A stretch of 64,000 nt of DNA from a virus (taxonomy: Duplodnaviria > Heunggongvirae > Uroviricota > Caudoviricetes), in the IMG/VR virus record IMGVR_UViG_3300037312_000757. One strand, 5' to 3'. A program made the translations under genes and the position numbers. The notes below the pieces were generated by a model that searched no databases, was not told the DNA's origin, and worked only from the letters and a program-made list of their open reading frames with translations. Each line of letters starts with the position of its first letter. The stretch's first letter is position 1. Below are positions 9,343-53,446 of the stretch, piece by piece.

Positions 9343-9368
9343 AAAAAGCCCCTCGTTGAAGGGGCTTG
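9343..9368 (-). terminator. intrinsic terminator after tRNA-Nudix unit
   Basis: AAGCCCCT/AGGGGCTT hairpin followed by T-run on minus strand. Confidence 0.65.
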
Positions 9369-9393: not shown

Positions 9394-9906
9394 TTAAACG
9401 TTGCCTTGAGACTTTGCAGCCAAGTAACGTTGTACTGCTTCGTTGTGGAGCGGGAACGCAAGGTCGTCAGCAAACGAAAGCTTCACCACCTCCAGTGTTT
9501 CGGGGCATGCAACGGCGGTTGCCAGCAATGCTTCATCCAGCGTTTCTGTGTAAATGCAGAACGACAGGATCTGGCCACCAGGTGTAGGTGCCGAATAGAA
9601 CTGATAGAACTTGTTTGCGTCAAGCTTGATGCCGCTTTCTTCGAGAATCTCACGGGCGACCGTTTCTTCGATGCTTTCGCCCTTCTCGCTAAAACCACCC
9701 ATCAGCGCTCGTTTGCCATAGCCGTAACCCTTGATGCCACGAACGCCGCCAAGCAAGCCATCGCCCATCGGGACAATACCAACACCAACTACATTCGGCG
9801 AATCGTAGACTTCACGCTTGCATGCTTCGTTGACACAAACACGGGGGAATGTTTCGACTTGGGTGTACTTTGTACCGCAGTGATGGCAAAAATTGAAAGC
9901 TGGCAT
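9394..9906 (-). CDS. Nudix hydrolase with N-terminal Zn ribbon
   Basis: FCHHCG..C..C and Nudix box GGFSEKGESIEETVAREILEESGI; start at 9906 because the longer ORF overlaps the tRNA. Confidence 0.9.
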   Translation of the reverse strand: MPAFNFCHHCGTKYTQVETFPRVCVNEACKREVYDSPNVVGVGIVPMGDGLLGGVRGIKGYGYGKRALMGGFSEKGESIEETVAREILEESGIKLDANKFYQFYSAPTPGGQILSFCIYTETLDEALLATAVACPETLEVVKLSFADDLAFPLHNEAVQRYLAAKSQGNV

Positions 9907-9926: not shown

Positions 9927-10003
9927 TGGCGGTCCCTGTGGGATTCGAACCCACGACCCTTGGTTTTGAAGACCAGTGCTCTGACCGCTGGAGCTAAGGG
10001 ACC
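9927..10003 (-). tRNA. tRNA with anticodon UCA (opal suppressor, Trp-like body)
   Basis: GGTCCCT TA GCTC CAGCGGTCA GAGC A CTGGT CTTCAAA ACCAA GGGTC GTGGG TTCGAAT CCCAC AGGGACC G CCA: 7-bp acceptor, T-arm, encoded CCA, loop CU-UCA-AA. Confidence 0.9.
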
Positions 10004-10025: not shown

Positions 10026-10053
10026 ATTCTACTGCCATATGGCAGCAAGTCAA
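10026..10053 (-). promoter_or_regulatory. sigma70 promoter of tRNA(UCA) with palindromic spacer
   Basis: TTGACT-16nt-TAGAAT; spacer contains perfect 14-bp palindrome CTGCCATATGGCAG. Confidence 0.65.
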
Positions 10054-10083: not shown

Positions 10084-10554
10084 TTACTCGTGATCGTAAT
10101 CGTCAACTGTGACGCCTGATGCAGTCACGCGAATGCTGACGTGGTCGCCGAATGCAAACTGAAGCACTTCTTCGCCGAGCGGACTATCCATGAAGTGGAC
10201 CAGATCGTCGAGATCTTGAATGCGACTATGACGGCGGTAACCAGTAAACGTCTGGAGGTCAGCCGGTTCATCATCTTCGCTGTCCCATTCGCCATAGTGG
10301 TTGATGTCTTCATAGTTCGCAGCATAGACATCACTGACACGGAACACACATTCGTCACCATCGTTGAAATATGGTGTGTACTGAACCCACGTGATCACCT
10401 TGATTTCGGGGTGACGAGCGAAAATGCCCTTCAGCTCACTGAGGAAAGCTTGCTTGGCTTCGTTGCGGGCGTTGTCCATCGTCTGTTGCAGACGCATGAC
10501 TGTGTCTTGAAAAGTTGCCTGTTGAATTTGTGTCATTTTAGTCTTCGGCGCCAA
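10084..10554 (-). CDS. conserved phage hypothetical protein
   Basis: WVQYTPYFNDGDECVF...DYDHE. Confidence 0.75.
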   Translation of the reverse strand: MAPKTKMTQIQQATFQDTVMRLQQTMDNARNEAKQAFLSELKGIFARHPEIKVITWVQYTPYFNDGDECVFRVSDVYAANYEDINHYGEWDSEDDEPADLQTFTGYRRHSRIQDLDDLVHFMDSPLGEEVLQFAFGDHVSIRVTASGVTVDDYDHE

Positions 10555-10909
10555 ATGGGATATGTTTGCGGTTTGTGCTAGGGTTCGACTTTTGTGTGCC
10601 TGACATCCATGGCTGAATAGTCATGTTGTTCAGGTATTGTTCGACGGTCGGAATAAAACCCAAGTCTTCCTTGATGTGCTCTTCAGCAACATCACGCGGA
10701 CTGTATTCCTTTCCGTCAGAATTGGTACGCACCACGCCGTACATTTGTTCCACCAGAAAGCAGCCAAATGCACTGTGAAGGATTGCACGATGACGAATAT
10801 CAGGCATGCAAGCCTTGCTTGAGTCGATAAAGTTGTGGATATCCATGTAGTCTTCAGCTACACCACCAAACTTCTTTACCGAGATCTTGGCGTGGAGATA
10901 GGGTTTCAT
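10538..10909 (-). CDS. conserved phage protein (DUF6915-like)
   Basis: PYLHA..S...GG..EDY..IH..D.SK...RHRA.LH...AEEHI.EDLG. Confidence 0.75.
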   Translation of the reverse strand: MKPYLHAKISVKKFGGVAEDYMDIHNFIDSSKACMPDIRHRAILHSAFGCFLVEQMYGVVRTNSDGKEYSPRDVAEEHIKEDLGFIPTVEQYLNNMTIQPWMSGTQKSNPSTNRKHIPFGAED

Positions 10910-13693: not shown

Positions 13694-13925
13694 TTTCTTG
13701 TTTTTCTGTTATTTGGTCACCAAATGCGAACAAGAACGCCATTGCTTCTAGTCGATCCTCTATTCTCCAAAAGTGGAATCGACCTGACTTCTTGTCGCGA
13801 CCTCTAAGCCATGTGGGTCTAATGGATAACTGTTCCACCGACTCACGTTTGATACGAGCCATTGCCTTGTGGAAGCTTTCACCGTCGCCGCCAAAAGGAG
13901 TCCGAACCTCGTATGTTATTGACAT
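13611..13925 (-). CDS. hypothetical protein, possibly 'FKLxW'-related
   Basis: WRIEDRLEAMAFLFAFG. Confidence 0.5.
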   Translation of the reverse strand: MSITYEVRTPFGGDGESFHKAMARIKRESVEQLSIRPTWLRGRDKKSGRFHFWRIEDRLEAMAFLFAFGDQITEKQENGDTNVSSIEKFVGKERSRSGNEERRT

Positions 13926-14356
13926 AGCGAGAACCTCTTGGTGATGTGATGAATTTCTGCTTTGCGAGCAGGACCGATACCCAGCGCAGTGATGATGGGT
14001 TCGCCTGTAAAAGCAGTGCCAGGGATGATGTGATGCTGATCGATAATCAGTTCACAGGGAATGCCAGCTTCCTTTGCGGCGTCGTACGCCTTCAGAATCG
14101 CGTCTTGGTTCTTGGCCTTCAGGCAGATTTTCGTGCCGATGCCGTCTCGCTGGTAAAAATCAGCGATATCAGGACGCTCTTTGAGAGCTTTGAGGTATGC
14201 ATTGAGATACGCGTGTCCGGCTTGTGCGGCAAGTTTGCCGGCAGACATGTTGAGATCGCCTCGCGTAATGGCGTAAAGACGATATGGGTCCTCTTCAGCT
14301 TCCGTTGCGGAATTCTGGAGGAACTCTTGCACTCAGCGATGGTCGAGATGATTCAT
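13916..14356 (-). CDS. pth2: peptidyl-tRNA hydrolase, Pth2 family; ATG 14356 separated from body by in-frame TGA (14333-14335); alternative GTG start 14332
   Basis: RGDLNMSAGKLAAQAGHA, KICLK, IID, TALGIGP = Pth2 motifs; SD AAGGAG 8 nt before ATG 14356. Confidence 0.85.
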
Positions 14357-14453: not shown

Positions 14454-15392
14454 TCACTTTGTTGCGTCGAGGTAACGAACGGCATCCAATGCAGCTTGAC
14501 AACCTGATCCAGCACTTGTGATGGCTTGACTATACACTGGGTCGGCAACGTCACCGCAAGCAAACACACCAGCTTTGCCGGTTCCTGTTTGGAACGTCAG
14601 ACCCTTTGTAGTCTTGATGAAGCCATAGTCATCAAGCATCAGCTGATCTTTGAACAGATCAGTATTTGGCTTGTGACCGATTGCAATAAACACGCCCGGT
14701 AGCCGGATTGATGTCAATGCTTGGCCGTTTGTGATGCTGATGGAATGCACACCGTTGTCATCACCATGTACTTCACGTAATGTAGAGTTCAGATGCAGCA
14801 CAATCTTGCCTTCATTGACCTTTTCCATCAAGTGATCGATCATGACTTGCTCAGCCTTGAATGTGTCACGACGATGGATCAAATGCACCTTGCTTGCGAT
14901 GTTGGACAGATACAGAGCTTCTTCAACCGCAGTGTTACCGCCACCAACTACCGCAACTTCCTGACCTTCATAGAAAAAGCCGTCACATGTTGCACAGCCT
15001 GATACACCACGTCCAAGGAATTCTTGCTCTGATGGCAGACCCAAATACTTAGCTGAAGCACCAGTCGCGATGATCAGCGAATCGCAAGTGTATGTGTCAC
15101 CAGTTTCTGTTGTCAGGGTGTATGGCTTGGTGTTGAGGTCAACGTTATTGACATAATCAATCACTACATTTGCACCAAAGCGAGTAGCGTGATCCTCGAG
15201 ACGTTGCATGAGGTCTGGGCCCATGATGCCTGTGACGTCGCCTGGCCAATTGTCAACTGTGGTGGTGGTCATCAGCTGGCCACCTTTGTCGAAGCCAGTG
15301 ATAACCGTTGGCTTCAAGCCTGCTCGTGCAGCGTAAAGGGCAGCGGTCCAACCAGCCGGGCCACTACCGAGAATAATGAGTTTTGAATGCAT
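14454..15392 (-). CDS. trxB: thioredoxin reductase
   Basis: GSGPAG, CATCDG, GGGNTA, HRR, GD motifs. Confidence 0.95.
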
Positions 15393-16970: not shown

Positions 16971-17064
16971 GAACTTCTCCAGAGAGTTGAGATCCCCGTT
17001 ACCGGGACAAACAATTGTACAGAGCTGATCTGAAAGCGCAATACATGATTCATAGCCATCAATA

Positions 17065-17092
17065 CAAAAGGGCCACTTGCGTGGCCCTTTTG
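17065..17092 (-). terminator. terminator of tmRNA gene
   Basis: AAAAGGGCCAC-GCAA-GTGGCCCTTTT. Confidence 0.8.
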
Positions 17093-17532
17093 GGTGTTTT
17101 CTGTTGCTAGGCATTTCCTGCCCCGGCATCGCTTAATCCCGAAGGATTAAGCAGCCATCGCAAAAACGTTGTCGTTTGCGGTTACTTCTTTTGTGCGCTT
17201 TACGAGCGTCACCTCAACGGATACCTCGTCTAATCTTTATTACCGCCCGTCGAAACCAGGTCGGGCCCATCAGGACAGTCCTCAGAGTACCAACGGGGTA
17301 AGCACTTTACGCCTTATCAGTGCGTCGCTTTGCCCAATTACCCCCAGTGTGAACCAGGGCGCTTGTGAGAGCTACAGCCTGCTTAGTTAGCAAGTGCTCT
17401 ACTAAAACTCTGTCATTCTGCACGCTTATCGCGAATCTGCTTGCATTCAGACCACAAAGACTGTTTTGGTGGACCCGGCGGGAATCGAACCCGCGTCCGA
17501 ACCGTCTATTCCATTAGATGTCAACAGCATCA
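17093..17532 (-). ncRNA. ssrA: tmRNA, circularly permuted (two-piece): acceptor piece ~17532-17467, coding piece 17268-~17093
   Basis: 3' end GCGGG TTCGATT CCCGC CGGGTCC A CCA lies upstream of 5' end GGGCCCGACCTGGTTTCGAC; acceptor stem with G3.U70, A73; tag ORF 17179-17147 ANDNVFAMAA*. Confidence 0.92.
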
Positions 17533-17538
17533 AAACAA

Positions 17539-17567
17539 ATGATAACGCAATTAGTTCACCGCGTCAA
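17539..17567 (-). promoter_or_regulatory. sigma70 promoter of tmRNA
   Basis: TTGACG-17nt-TATCAT. Confidence 0.75.
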
Positions 17568-52375: not shown

Positions 52376-53446
52376 TTATTCTTCGTCCTCAACTACTGGG
52401 TCAACCAGGTTGGCTTCATCAGCGCCCAGCTTCGTGTTCCACTCAAGCATAATCTGCATGAGCAGGTCATCTGAAATCTGCTTGCGGAACAACTTGTGTT
52501 CCGTGCCGTCGTTAGCCACATATTTCAGCTTGTTACCATCCTTCACGAGAACATTCTTGCTCTCGAACAACTCGATCAGACCAGAGTATGGATCCATGCC
52601 TGTGTCGTATGGAATCTTGACTTCCATTGTTTCGAATGGTTTCGCATAACGTGACTTCATGACCTTAATCGCTGCGCGAATACCAGTCACATCTGAAGTC
52701 TTGTTGCCATCAGCGTCTTCCTTCAGCTTACGCTTCTGCATCGCAACCACAATTGATGCAGCATACACAACACCCTGGCCACCAGAGATCTTGTCATCTG
52801 GGTCAAACATGTCTTGTGACGCATATGAGTGGTTGGTTGTGACCAGACCAACATCATATTCACCGAACATGTTGGTAACGTTTGTCACCAGCGCCTTCAG
52901 TGCCTTTGGCTTACGACCCATGTCACCCTTCAGCTCACCAGCTTCAAACTGTGCAACGTCAGTTGCAGTCATCAGCATGCCCAGTGAGTCGATGATGAAC
53001 ATAACCTTTGGTCGTTCTGTAGCATCGAGTGAACCGTAGTTCGTTTTGTAGTCCTTCATGAAGTCGCTGATGATCTTAGCCACGTCATCGATCATCGCTG
53101 CGCTAATACGCATCAGCTTTGTCTCATCCGTGTCAACGCCAAGTGCCTTCAACCATGCTTCATCAAGTGCGTTTTCCGTGTCAATCATGACAACGAAAAT
53201 ACCTTGTTTCTGTGCTTCGCGCGCAATGTTGCCCGACACGATAAACGACTTGCCTGAGCCTGACTGACCAGCAAACATTGTTGACTTACCAAGAGGAACA
53301 CCCTTGAAGAAGTCGTTTGAGATCATATAGTTCAGTGCATAGTTGCCAGTGCTGACCCAAGTCTTTGGGTCATTAAAGCCAATGCTAATGCCGTTAATGG
53401 CACTAGTGATTGACTTTCTGAATTTGGATACGTCGATTGCCTTCAT
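52376..53446 (-). CDS. uvsX: RecA-like recombinase UvsX
   Basis: STGNYALN, GQSGSGKS, IDTENA, IDSLG, TNH.Y, SGG. Confidence 0.92.
   Translation of the reverse strand: MKAIDVSKFRKSITSAINGISIGFNDPKTWVSTGNYALNYMISNDFFKGVPLGKSTMFAGQSGSGKSFIVSGNIAREAQKQGIFVVMIDTENALDEAWLKALGVDTDETKLMRISAAMIDDVAKIISDFMKDYKTNYGSLDATERPKVMFIIDSLGMLMTATDVAQFEAGELKGDMGRKPKALKALVTNVTNMFGEYDVGLVTTNHSYASQDMFDPDDKISGGQGVVYAASIVVAMQKRKLKEDADGNKTSDVTGIRAAIKVMKSRYAKPFETMEVKIPYDTGMDPYSGLIELFESKNVLVKDGNKLKYVANDGTEHKLFRKQISDDLLMQIMLEWNTKLGADEANLVDPVVEDEE

What the first reader, a model, noticed from the sequence alone, without database searches (positions are those of the whole stretch)
9927..10003. tRNA with UCA anticodon on a Trp-like body and a 4-bp anticodon stem
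Seen: anticodon loop CU-UCA-AA; G73; short variable loop; 7/5 fold; encoded CCA; C27-A43 mismatch at the top of the anticodon stem. The arm GAGCACTGGTCTTCAAAACCA closely resembles bacterial tRNA-Trp (GAGCACCGGTCTCCAAAACCG). It lacks the long variable arm and extended acceptor of tRNA-Sec. Known: UCA can read UGA and UGG, and a 4-bp anticodon stem in tRNA-Trp promotes UGA read-through in some eukaryotes. Inference: a functional opal suppressor inserting Trp. An alternative is an anticodon variant that evades a host anticodon nuclease while decoding UGG.
Basis: partly seen in the sequence, partly recalled or inferred. Interest (0 to 1): 0.82.

Follow-up and report, generated by a model that had tools for sequence, protein, structure and literature searches.

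The report
Phage stop-reading tRNA unlocks gated genes
A half-megabase soil phage that uses the normal genetic code carries its own tRNA that reads the stop codon UGA, and this tRNA most likely acts as a private key for one or two phage translation-factor genes that are deliberately interrupted by a UGA.

Summary
Window 9927-10003 (minus strand) is a 77-nt tRNA gene with anticodon UCA, G73, encoded CCA, a 5-nt variable loop and an unpaired C27.A43.

It lies in a 524-kb jumbo phage with terminal repeats, related to Agrobacterium phage Atu_ph07 and Sinorhizobium jumbo phages. The phage uses the standard code: TGA ends about 39% of its genes.

UCA is not an error. A collinear relative (about 75% nucleotide identity) has a UCA tRNA in the same slot, with seven compensatory stem changes and the same unpaired 27.43. 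Other relatives carry a CUA tRNA there.

The tRNA has a client. The phage Pth2 (peptidyl-tRNA hydrolase) gene 4.3 kb away begins SD-ATG-6 codons-TGA-body. In 19 phage lineages the stop in this leader (TGA, TAG or TAA) always matches that phage's own suppressor anticodon (UCA, CUA, UUA). These include cultured Atu_ph07 (TGA/UCA) and Phosso (TAG/CUA). A second UGA, at a conserved Trp codon, interrupts the phage's RF1-like gene.

So this is most likely a working opal suppressor used as a key for one or two locked genes, not for genome-wide recoding. Trp identity is likely but unproven. The Pth2 lock was noted earlier in this scan, on this genome and on others.

The parts
9927..10003 (-). tRNA gene with anticodon UCA (opal suppressor), G73, encoded CCA and an unpaired C27.A43
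   Evidence: ARAGORN; Rfam tRNA 63.4 bits; same slot and same anticodon in relative G006, with compensatory changes
10026..10053 (-). sigma-70-like promoter TTGACT-16-TAGAAT, ending 22 nt before the tRNA
   Evidence: Promoter scan, 10 of 12 matches; conserved almost base for base in G006 although the tRNA body diverged; same promoter class before many phage tRNA genes and before the RF1-like gene
10033..10044 (.). 12-bp palindrome TGCCATATGGCA between the -35 and -10 hexamers; possible operator
   Evidence: Read from the sequence; unique in the genome; conserved with one change in G006. Function inferred only.
9394..9906 (-). Nudix hydrolase gene starting 20 nt after the tRNA, probably co-transcribed
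   Evidence: Pfam NUDIX E 6e-8; no terminator-like site between tRNA and gene, and one follows the gene; the tRNA-gene junction is conserved in G006
9346..9367 (-). intrinsic-terminator-like hairpin with a T run, at the end of the tRNA-Nudix unit
   Evidence: Terminator scan, 9-bp stem
13916..14356 (-). Pth2 peptidyl-tRNA hydrolase gene locked by UGA: SD, ATG (14354-14356), six codons, TGA (14333-14335), then a 138-codon body
   Evidence: Pfam PTH2 E 3e-25 over residues 26-145 of the read-through product; leader read; the stop type co-varies with the suppressor anticodon in relatives
10084..10909 (-). two conserved genes (123 and 156 aa) that anchor the tRNA slot
   Evidence: 84% and 59% aa identity to G001 genes that directly precede its tRNA(CUA); 92% identity in G006 before its tRNA(UCA)
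17056..17559 (-). permuted (alpha-type) tmRNA with tag ANDNVFAMAA; context, same translation-control neighbourhood
   Evidence: ARAGORN; Rfam tmRNA_permuted 121 bits and alpha_tmRNA 96 bits; relatives also keep a tmRNA near their suppressor tRNAs

Best explanation
This is a phage-encoded opal (UGA) suppressor tRNA. It is transcribed from its own host-type promoter. It is probably charged with tryptophan by the host TrpRS, since the phage has no TrpRS of its own. On the ribosome it competes with host RF2 at UGA codons. Its dedicated client is the phage Pth2 gene 4.3 kb upstream. That gene's ribosome-binding site serves an ATG followed by six codons and a UGA, so the hydrolase domain is translated only when the UGA is read through. 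In this phage the same tRNA can also open the single UGA at a conserved Trp codon (codon 37) of the phage's domain-1-less RF1-type release factor. The unpaired 27.43 position at the top of the anticodon stem probably raises read-through efficiency. Shown here: the tRNA, its conservation, the two UGA-interrupted genes, and the co-variation of lock and key. Inferred: charging with Trp, actual suppression, and the effect of the 27.43 mismatch.
For: 1) It is a real, constrained tRNA. Rfam scores 63.4 bits. Across four slot orthologues, 20 cloverleaf pairs are 100% paired, 10 of them through changes on both sides, and no shuffle or slid control comes near.
2) UCA is inherited, not an error. G006 is collinear with G000 over 283 kb at about 75% nucleotide identity. 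It has a tRNA(UCA) after the same two genes, with an identical anticodon loop.
3) The slot holds suppressors. G001 and G007 carry tRNA(CUA) at the same place.
4) Lock and key match. The Pth2 leader stop is TGA in G000 and G006 (UCA). It is TAG in G001 (CUA), where the next codon is GTT and no start codon follows. Over IMG/VR loci and GenBank phages the tally is TGA/UCA in 4, TAA/UUA in 1 and TAG/CUA in 14, with no mismatch.
5) Only two genes in the genome carry an in-frame UGA: Pth2 and the RF1-like gene. The RF1-like UGA falls on the conserved GW tryptophan of RF1. It is TGA in 80 of 80 relatives.
6) Trp type. In bacterial genomes the D-stem and anticodon arm occur only in tRNA-Trp(CCA): 115 of 115 tRNAs, none with U34 and one with A43. 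The tRNA is the reciprocal best match of relatives' tRNA-Trp among 210 phage tRNAs. G73 plus the anticodon are the major E. coli TrpRS identity elements, and a Bacillus subtilis tRNA-Trp(UCA) is used as an opal suppressor with its own TrpRS (PMC2965240).
7) 27.43 is unpaired in 4 of 4 slot tRNAs. It is enriched among Pth2-linked suppressors: 7 of 22 against 15 of 163 other tRNAs, Fisher p 0.007. Unpairing this position raises stop read-through in E. coli (PMC13092985).
8) It has its own conserved promoter.
Against: - No expression, charging or read-through data exist.
- TGA still ends about 39% of the phage's own genes, with no excess of back-up stops. An efficient suppressor would therefore extend many phage proteins, which argues for modest efficiency.
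- In G000 and G006 the codon after the Pth2 UGA is GTG, so termination-reinitiation could in principle make the protein without suppression.
- The sister UCA tRNAs of G006, L438 and Atu_ph07 have A73, not the bacterial Trp discriminator G73. The inserted amino acid may therefore differ or be unimportant.
- The RF1-like UGA is kept in at least 13 large relatives that have no detectable UCA tRNA. That lock does not depend on this key.
- Whole-body similarity to tRNA-Trp is modest (78%), only just above other isotypes.
- The lineages in the co-variation count are not all independent; there are perhaps four or five independent switches.
Confidence: 0.75

Rival explanations
1. It is simply the phage's tryptophan tRNA. 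A U34 anticodon reads UGG by wobble, as in Mycoplasma, to supply Trp decoding, and UGA reading is an unselected side effect.
For: No intron-less tRNA-Trp(CCA) is found in this genome, although nearly every other amino acid is covered. Relatives G001 and G003 do have tRNA-Trp(CCA). The body is Trp-like with G73.
Against: The same slot holds CUA suppressors in relatives. The Pth2 leader stop tracks the anticodon. [quoted passage not shown] The host supplies tRNA-Trp anyway. A doubtful insert-bearing CCA tRNA-like gene exists at genome 399516-399633.
Confidence: 0.08
2. It is a general read-through weapon. The tRNA suppresses UGA genome-wide, extending or destabilising host proteins as part of host takeover, and the two phage UGA genes are incidental.
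For: UGA is an abundant stop in rhizobial hosts, as noted for Atu_ph07 (PMC6102473). The phage also carries a tmRNA, Pth2 and an RF1-like factor, which could handle the consequences of run-on translation.
Against: The phage would hit about 39% of its own genes. No compensating bias in stop usage or back-up stops is seen. The strict lock-key co-variation, including TAG and TAA versions, points to a specific client. This reading is not exclusive of the best explanation.
Confidence: 0.1
3. The Pth2 and RF1-like UGAs are read without this tRNA, by near-cognate tRNA-Trp(CCA) or by reinitiation. The UCA tRNA is a decaying or neutral anticodon mutant, or an assembly error.
For: RF1-like UGA37 is conserved in relatives that lack any UCA tRNA. 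GTG follows the Pth2 UGA in G000 and G006.
Against: UCA is conserved across about 25% nucleotide divergence, with seven compensatory stem changes and a conserved promoter. Decay or error would not give this. In the TAG-locked relatives no start codon follows the stop.
Confidence: 0.04
4. It is an anticodon variant that escapes a host anticodon nuclease while still decoding UGG, or it is a selenocysteine tRNA.
For: ARAGORN labels any UCA tRNA as 'SeC'. Phage tRNAs that evade anticodon nucleases are known (own knowledge).
Against: It has a 5-nt variable loop and a 7/5 acceptor/T fold instead of the long arm and extended acceptor of tRNA-Sec. The real tRNA-Sec genes found with the same anticodon arm are 91-98 nt. 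Neither idea explains the CUA and UUA orthologues or the matching leader stops.
Confidence: 0.03

Closest known systems
Opal suppressor tRNA(UCA) of Agrobacterium jumbo phage Atu_ph07 (Attai et al. 2018, PMC6102473)
   Same: It is a UCA tRNA in a standard-code jumbo phage of about 490 kb from the same wider clade, in which UGA is an abundant stop. I found that its Pth2 gene gp256 has the same lock: ATG, five codons, then TGA.
   Different: The paper reports the tRNA but names no target. The Atu_ph07 tRNA has a different body, A73 and G27.U43, and lies 232 kb from Pth2. Atu_ph07 also keeps a tRNA-Trp(CCA) and has no detectable RF1-like gene.
Suppressor tRNAs of stop-codon-recoded phages (code 4 TGA>Trp, code 15 TAG>Gln; Borges et al., bioRxiv 10.1101/2021.08.26.457843)
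   Same: These are phage-encoded tRNAs that read a stop codon so that phage genes with in-frame stops are made only once the phage has changed decoding. Some clades add RF1 and TrpRS as a 'code change module', and some standard-code relatives already carry a TGA suppressor.
   Different: Here there is no recoding of the genome. Two genes in 524 kb contain an in-frame UGA, and TGA ends about 39% of genes. The locked genes are translation factors, not structural or lysis genes. The RF1-type gene is itself behind a UGA, whereas the Jade module is written in standard code. No TrpRS is present.
tRNA-Trp with a 4-bp anticodon stem (Blastocrithidia, Condylostoma, Zinderia; Fakih et al. 2026, PMC13092985)
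   Same: The top anticodon-stem pair 27-43 is unpaired in a Trp-type tRNA. Such unpairing raises UGA read-through in E. coli, and a natural G27.A43 improved a CUA suppressor.
   Different: Those tRNAs keep the near-cognate CCA anticodon. This one is fully cognate to UGA, so the mismatch can only tune efficiency. It is phage-borne.
Laboratory tRNA-Trp-derived suppressors (E. coli Hirsh G24A and su7 CUA; Bacillus subtilis tRNA-Trp UCA)
   Same: These are one-step derivatives of the CCA anticodon or of the body that read stop codons. The UCA form is still charged by bacterial TrpRS (PMC2965240).
   Different: They are mutants selected in the laboratory, with no natural dedicated client gene.
prfB autoregulation through an in-frame UGA
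   Same: A translation-termination gene is interrupted early by UGA, so its output depends on how well UGA is terminated.
   Different: prfB needs a +1 frameshift and senses RF2. Here both phage genes continue in the zero frame, and a phage tRNA supplies the read-through.

Membership tests
Nonsense (opal) suppressor tRNA | Canonical cloverleaf tRNA under selection | tested here: met
   Rfam 63.4 bits. 20 pairs are 100% paired in four orthologues, 10 of them with changes on both sides.
Nonsense (opal) suppressor tRNA | Anticodon complementary to a stop codon, and inherited rather than an error | tested here: met
   UCA in G000 and in the collinear relative G006 at the same slot.
Nonsense (opal) suppressor tRNA | Genes that need the stop to be read | tested here: met
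   Pth2 codon 8 and RF1-like codon 37 are TGA. The Pth2 leader stop co-varies with the suppressor anticodon in 19 lineages with no mismatch.
Nonsense (opal) suppressor tRNA | Measured read-through of UGA in vivo | not testable with these tools
   Needs reporter assays or proteomics.
Bacterial tRNA-Trp | Discriminator G73 | tested here: met
   G73 in G000, but A73 in the G006, L438 and Atu_ph07 UCA tRNAs.
Bacterial tRNA-Trp | Anticodon CCA | tested here: not met
   The anticodon is UCA. C35 and A36 are kept and C34 is U.
Bacterial tRNA-Trp | Trp-type D stem and anticodon arm | tested here: met
   In the genome scan the arm, with position 34 and position 43 left free, was carried by tRNA-Trp(CCA) in all 115 tRNAs found. 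Reciprocal best match to relatives' tRNA-Trp.
Bacterial tRNA-Trp | Aminoacylation by TrpRS | not testable with these tools
   The phage has no class Ib synthetase, so charging would be by the host enzyme.
tRNA-Sec | Long variable arm and extended acceptor/T helix (8/5 in bacteria) | tested here: not met
   5-nt variable loop, 7/5 fold and 77 nt. True tRNA-Sec genes with the same loop are 91-98 nt.
4-bp anticodon-stem tRNA-Trp (Blastocrithidia-like) | Position 27-43 unpaired, four pairs below it | tested here: met
   C27.A43 here. The position is unpaired in 4 of 4 slot orthologues.
4-bp anticodon-stem tRNA-Trp (Blastocrithidia-like) | Near-cognate CCA anticodon reading UGA | tested here: not met
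   The anticodon is the fully cognate UCA.
Stop-codon-recoded (code 4) phage | Many genes with in-frame TGA, and low coding density under code 11 | tested here: not met
   ORFs of at least 100 aa cover 90% under code 11. TGA ends 314 of 798 crude genes. Only two genes have an in-frame TGA.
Phage 'code change module' (suppressor tRNA + RF1 + TrpRS, Jade phages) | Suppressor tRNA, RF1 and TrpRS together and written in standard code | tested here: not met
   The tRNA and an RF1-type gene are present but lie 259 kb apart. The RF1-type gene is itself interrupted by UGA. No TrpRS is found.

The most novel reading that the evidence does not exclude
The suppressor tRNA, the stop-locked Pth2 gene and the UGA-locked mini-RF1 form a phage-run circuit that measures and resets translation termination in the infected cell. 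The leader stop reports how well the phage tRNA out-competes the host release factor. Only then are a peptidyl-tRNA hydrolase and a release factor for the other two stop codons made. In the G000/G006 lineage, the switch of key and Pth2 lock from CUA/TAG to UCA/TGA put both locked genes under one key.
Probability: 0.25. Interest if true: 0.8.

Novelty: new variant of a known kind. Interest (0 to 1): 0.62.

Why it matters
Suppressor tRNAs have been reported in standard-code jumbo phages such as Atu_ph07 without any known purpose. In recoded phages they are seen as tools for changing the whole genetic code.

The evidence here points to a third use: a single-gene lock and key. A stop codon placed a few codons into a gene is opened only by the phage's own tRNA. 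The lock and the key change together (UGA/UCA, UAG/CUA, UAA/UUA).

This would be a compact, portable post-transcriptional switch and a natural analogue of engineered suppressor-gated expression. It may also be a first step on the evolutionary path to full stop-codon recoding.

Because the same lock exists in cultured phages (Atu_ph07, Phosso), the idea can be tested directly. It also warns annotators: such genes are called truncated, and the tRNAs are labelled SeC, Pyl or undetermined.

Tried and rejected
- Genome-wide TGA=Trp recoding. Rejected: coding coverage is normal under code 11 and TGA is a common stop.
- Further UGA-interrupted genes. Candidates at genome 230274, 355099, 23427, 28922, 311260, 334903, 447011, 263561 and others were inspected. 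All proved to be ordinary stops followed by the next gene, antisense frames or chance leaders.
- In-frame TAG clients for the CUA tRNAs of relatives, other than Pth2. None was detected by the frame test.
- My own first reading that the Pth2 UGA is irrelevant because GTG follows it. Overturned by relatives in which no start follows the stop.
- Depletion of TGA stops or extra back-up stops in UCA-bearing genomes. No clear signal, and the comparison is confounded by G+C content.
- Search of IMG/VR for the exact tRNA and for its anticodon arm. The exact tRNA gave no match, and the arm gave only true tRNA-Sec genes and chance matches.
- Megablast against GenBank phages: no match.
- The idea that the G001 CUA tRNA is also Trp-derived. 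Weak: its best matches are other CUA tRNAs.
- Orthology of the Nudix gene beside the tRNA with the Nudix gene beside Atu_ph07 Pth2. Only the Nudix box aligns.
- Pth2 of G004 and G005 is too divergent for the leader analysis. One weak Pth2-like frame with an internal TAG lies beside a tRNA(CUA).
- A literature search found no report of a phage RF1 gene with a conserved in-frame UGA. The library is incomplete.

Full report
**What is there.**
ARAGORN finds one tRNA in the window, at 9927-10003 on the minus strand, with anticodon tca. Rfam's tRNA model matches at 63.4 bits, E 2e-11.

Read on the minus strand, it has:
- a 7-bp acceptor stem, a 4-bp D stem and a 5-bp T stem;
- a 9-nt D loop, with C where A14 is usual;
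- the anticodon loop CU-UCA-AA and a 5-nt variable loop;
- G73 and an encoded CCA;
- an anticodon stem whose top position is C27.A43, which leaves four pairs.

The minimum-free-energy fold of the single sequence is not unusual (z -1.5), so the case rests on the model score and on comparison with relatives.

**Where it lies.**
The window is bases 136518-200517 (reversed) of a 523,836-bp virus record with direct terminal repeats, rated complete. The genome has 47% G+C and genes mostly on one strand.

It carries about 60 tRNA genes, most of them in one cluster 200 kb away. It also has a permuted alpha-type tmRNA 7 kb from this tRNA.

The Pth2 protein finds its nearest named relatives in two cultured jumbo phages. 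These are Sinorhizobium phage Phosso (469 kb) and Agrobacterium phage Atu_ph07 (490 kb). Together with the alpha-type tmRNA, this makes a rhizobial host likely (inference).

**The genetic code is standard.**
- Stop-to-stop ORFs of 100 aa or more cover 90% of the genome under code 11.
- In a crude gene set, TGA ends 314 of 798 genes, and 71 of 239 genes of 200 aa or more.
- Trp is written TGG (14.7 per 1000 codons).
- Extensions past TGA are no longer than those past TAA, and there is no excess of back-up stops.

**Is UCA real?**
The two genes just upstream of the tRNA (window 10538-10909 and 10084-10554) were used to find the same slot in other phages.

G006 is a 290-kb fragment collinear with the first 283 kb of this genome at about 75% nucleotide identity. 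It has a tRNA(UCA) at the same place.
- The anticodon loop is identical.
- Seven stem pairs differ on both sides and stay paired.
- Position 27.43 is again unpaired (G.A).
- The promoter is conserved almost base for base.

G001 and G007 carry a tRNA(CUA) in the slot, and G008 carries a tRNA-Arg(CCU).

On the four suppressor orthologues, 20 pairs are 100% paired, 10 of them with compensatory changes. Position 27-43 is unpaired in all four. No shuffle and no slid control approaches these values.

So the anticodon is inherited, the tRNA is under selection, and the 4-bp anticodon stem is a kept feature in this clade.

**Is it Trp-like?**
I scanned one genome per bacterial species for the D-stem 3' half plus anticodon arm, leaving position 34 free as C or T and position 43 free as A or G.
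- All 115 tRNAs at those sites are tRNA-Trp(CCA).
- None has U34 and one has A43.

Among 210 tRNAs of this phage and three relatives, the tRNA is the reciprocal best match of relatives' tRNA-Trp. The margin is small: 78% against 77% for the next isotype.

G73 and the anticodon are the main identity elements for E. coli TrpRS. A Bacillus subtilis tRNA-Trp with UCA is used as an opal suppressor with its own TrpRS (PMC2965240). The phage has no class Ib synthetase.

Trp is therefore the best guess for this tRNA. However, the UCA tRNAs of G006, L438 and Atu_ph07 have A73, so the amino acid may not be the selected property.

**What does it read?**
I looked for in-frame TGA in three ways:
- a 3-periodic Markov frame test on both sides of every stop;
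- tblastn of all code-4 ORFs against three complete relatives and against G006;
- a scan for short SD-ATG leaders ending in a stop.

Two genes survive inspection.

*(a) The RF1-like gene.* It is a 224-codon gene at genome 449480-450154, outside the window.
- It has PCRF and RF-1 domains and PPT and GGQ motifs. It is far closer to RF1 than to RF2 (E 2e-37 against 1.5e-20) and lacks domain 1.
- Its codon 37 is TGA, aligned with the conserved Trp of the GW motif of RF1. The nearest downstream in-frame start (a TTG) lies 125 codons on.
- All 80 retained relatives (61-73% identity, out of 253 found) have TGA at this codon and no other stop.
- The base after the TGA is never T.

*(b) The Pth2 gene* at window 13916-14356.
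- A good SD serves an ATG, followed by six codons, then TGA, then a 138-codon body.
- The Pfam PTH2 domain starts 18 codons after the TGA.

**Lock and key.**
I first discounted the Pth2 UGA because GTG follows it. Follow-up notes of this scan claimed that the stop co-varies with the phage's suppressor, so I tested this myself.

| Lineage | Leader stop | Suppressor anticodon |
|---|---|---|
| G006 | TGA | UCA |
| G001 | TAG, after ATG and three codons; the next codon is GTT and no start codon occurs before the domain | CUA |

A profile search then gave 117 viral loci, of which 80 were kept. Wherever a suppressor tRNA lies within 7 kb and a stop sits directly before the conserved N-terminus, the two match.

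| Leader stop / anticodon | Lineages |
|---|---|
| TGA / UCA | G000, G006, L438 |
| TAA / UUA | L431 |
| TAG / CUA | 13 loci, one of them with two TAGs in the leader |

An apparent exception, L430, resolved to TAG/CUA on inspection. Often the tRNA lies 95-350 nt upstream of the leader.

Two cultured phages add to the count:

| Phage | Pth2 leader | Suppressor tRNA |
|---|---|---|
| Phosso | ATG-AAG-TAT-TAG-GTT | tRNA(CUA) 4.5 kb upstream, annotated 'undetermined' |
| Atu_ph07 | ATG, five codons, TGA (L483:4947-4949) | tRNA(UCA) at 430713-430787 |

In Atu_ph07 the annotated gp256 starts at an internal Met inside the domain.

In total there are 19 matches and no mismatch, with perhaps four or five independent switches away from the TAG/CUA majority.

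**The RF1-like lock behaves differently.**
It is UGA in all relatives, whatever their suppressor. The three relatives scanned in full have tRNA(CUA) and tRNA-Trp(CCA) but no tRNA(UCA). Ten further large relatives lack the UCA loop motif.

So this UGA is older than the UCA tRNA. Elsewhere it must be read by near-cognate decoding or some other means. Only in the G000 lineage does a cognate phage tRNA exist for it.

The RF1-like gene and the tRNA share the same strong promoter class, TTGAC-N16/17-TAGAAT, which also precedes many phage tRNA genes.

**The 27.43 mismatch.**
Among the Pth2-linked suppressors, 7 of 22 have position 27-43 unpaired and six more have G.U there. This compares with 15 of 163 other tRNAs in the same loci (Fisher p 0.007).

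Published work shows that:
- unpairing 27-43 in E. coli tRNA-Trp raises UGA read-through about 2.5-fold;
- a natural G27.A43 made a CUA derivative of tRNA-Thr a better suppressor (PMC13092985).

The feature is therefore plausibly an efficiency tuner. Its effect here is inferred.

**Mechanism proposed.**
1. Host RNA polymerase transcribes the tRNA, probably together with the Nudix gene that follows it, up to the terminator at 9346-9367.
2. The tRNA is charged, most likely with Trp.
3. It competes with RF2 at UGA.
4. Ribosomes that start at the Pth2 leader ATG reach the hydrolase body only when the tRNA wins. The same holds for the RF1-like gene at codon 37.

Because TGA still ends many phage genes, suppression is probably partial. 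Why a peptidyl-tRNA hydrolase should be tied to a suppressor tRNA is not known. One possibility is a need to recycle peptidyl-tRNA shed during run-on translation. Another is a timer or sensor of the phage's takeover of termination. Both are speculation.

**Comparison with what is known.**
- Phage suppressor tRNAs are known from recoded phages. Some clades pair them with RF1 and TrpRS, and some standard-code relatives have already acquired a TGA suppressor.
- The Atu_ph07 paper reported its UCA suppressor and remarked only that UGA stops are abundant.
- The AP-J-162 paper called its CUA tRNA 'tRNA-Pyl'.
- I found no publication that links these tRNAs to a stop-locked Pth2 gene or to a UGA-interrupted RF1 gene. 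The library is incomplete.
- The link was noted earlier in this scan on this genome, and a similar lock was noted on another genome.

I therefore class the tRNA as a new variant of a known kind.

Noticed in passing
outside the window: genome 449480-450154 (+) = L031:981-1655: A domain-1-less RF1-type release factor gene (PPT and GGQ motifs). It has a single in-frame TGA at the conserved GW tryptophan (codon 37). The codon is TGA in 80 of 80 related viral loci, and the next base is never T. The gene is preceded by a TTGACT-17-TAGAAT promoter and an AAAGGAG ribosome-binding site.
   Followed up: partly
outside the window: genome 399516-399633, 400042-400162, 411469-411592, 431537-431816; also G002 109626-109749: tRNA-like genes with inserts of 26-196 nt in or near the anticodon arm. 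They score 30-46 bits on the Rfam tRNA model. ARAGORN calls one 'Trp(cca)' with a 45-nt intron, but it has U73 and a poor anticodon stem. Their identity and processing are unknown.
   Followed up: partly
window 10033-10044: A perfect 12-bp palindrome, TGCCATATGGCA, lies between the -35 and -10 hexamers of the tRNA promoter. It is unique in the genome and conserved in G006, so it may be an operator.
   Followed up: partly
window 9394-9906 (-): A Nudix hydrolase with an N-terminal zinc-ribbon-like CxxC pair starts 20 nt after the tRNA and is probably co-transcribed. Atu_ph07 also has a Nudix gene directly before its locked Pth2, but only the Nudix box aligns between the two.
   Followed up: partly
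relatives G001 53129-53203, G002 124199-124272 and 126682-126759, G003 258611-258769: Related 350-425-kb phages carry one or two tRNA(CUA) genes near their tmRNA. The frame test found no in-frame TAG genes in them. G002 and G003 showed no clear Pth2 homologue, so the client of their CUA tRNAs is open.
   Followed up: partly
whole genome, e.g. 337632, 391065, 410261, 441378, 449427 (+): About 21 strong sigma-70-like promoters of the form TTGAC-N16/17-TA(G/T)AAT. Many stand directly before tRNA genes. Several share the downstream motif GTGA(A/T)ACA.
   Followed up: no
window 14454-15392 (-) and 17056-17559 (-): A thioredoxin-reductase-like gene and a permuted two-piece tmRNA (tag ANDNVFAMAA) lie in the same stretch as Pth2 and the suppressor tRNA. 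The tmRNA tag is nearly the same in G006 (ANDNVYSMAA) and G001 (ANDNVYAAAA).
   Followed up: no
L435 (IMGVR_UViG_3300049893_002184) and L431 (IMGVR_UViG_3300027917_000018): Two variant Pth2 locks. One leader has two TAG codons four codons apart, beside a tRNA(CUA). The other is a GTG-started leader ending in TAA, beside a tRNA(UUA), which is a rare natural ochre suppressor.
   Followed up: partly
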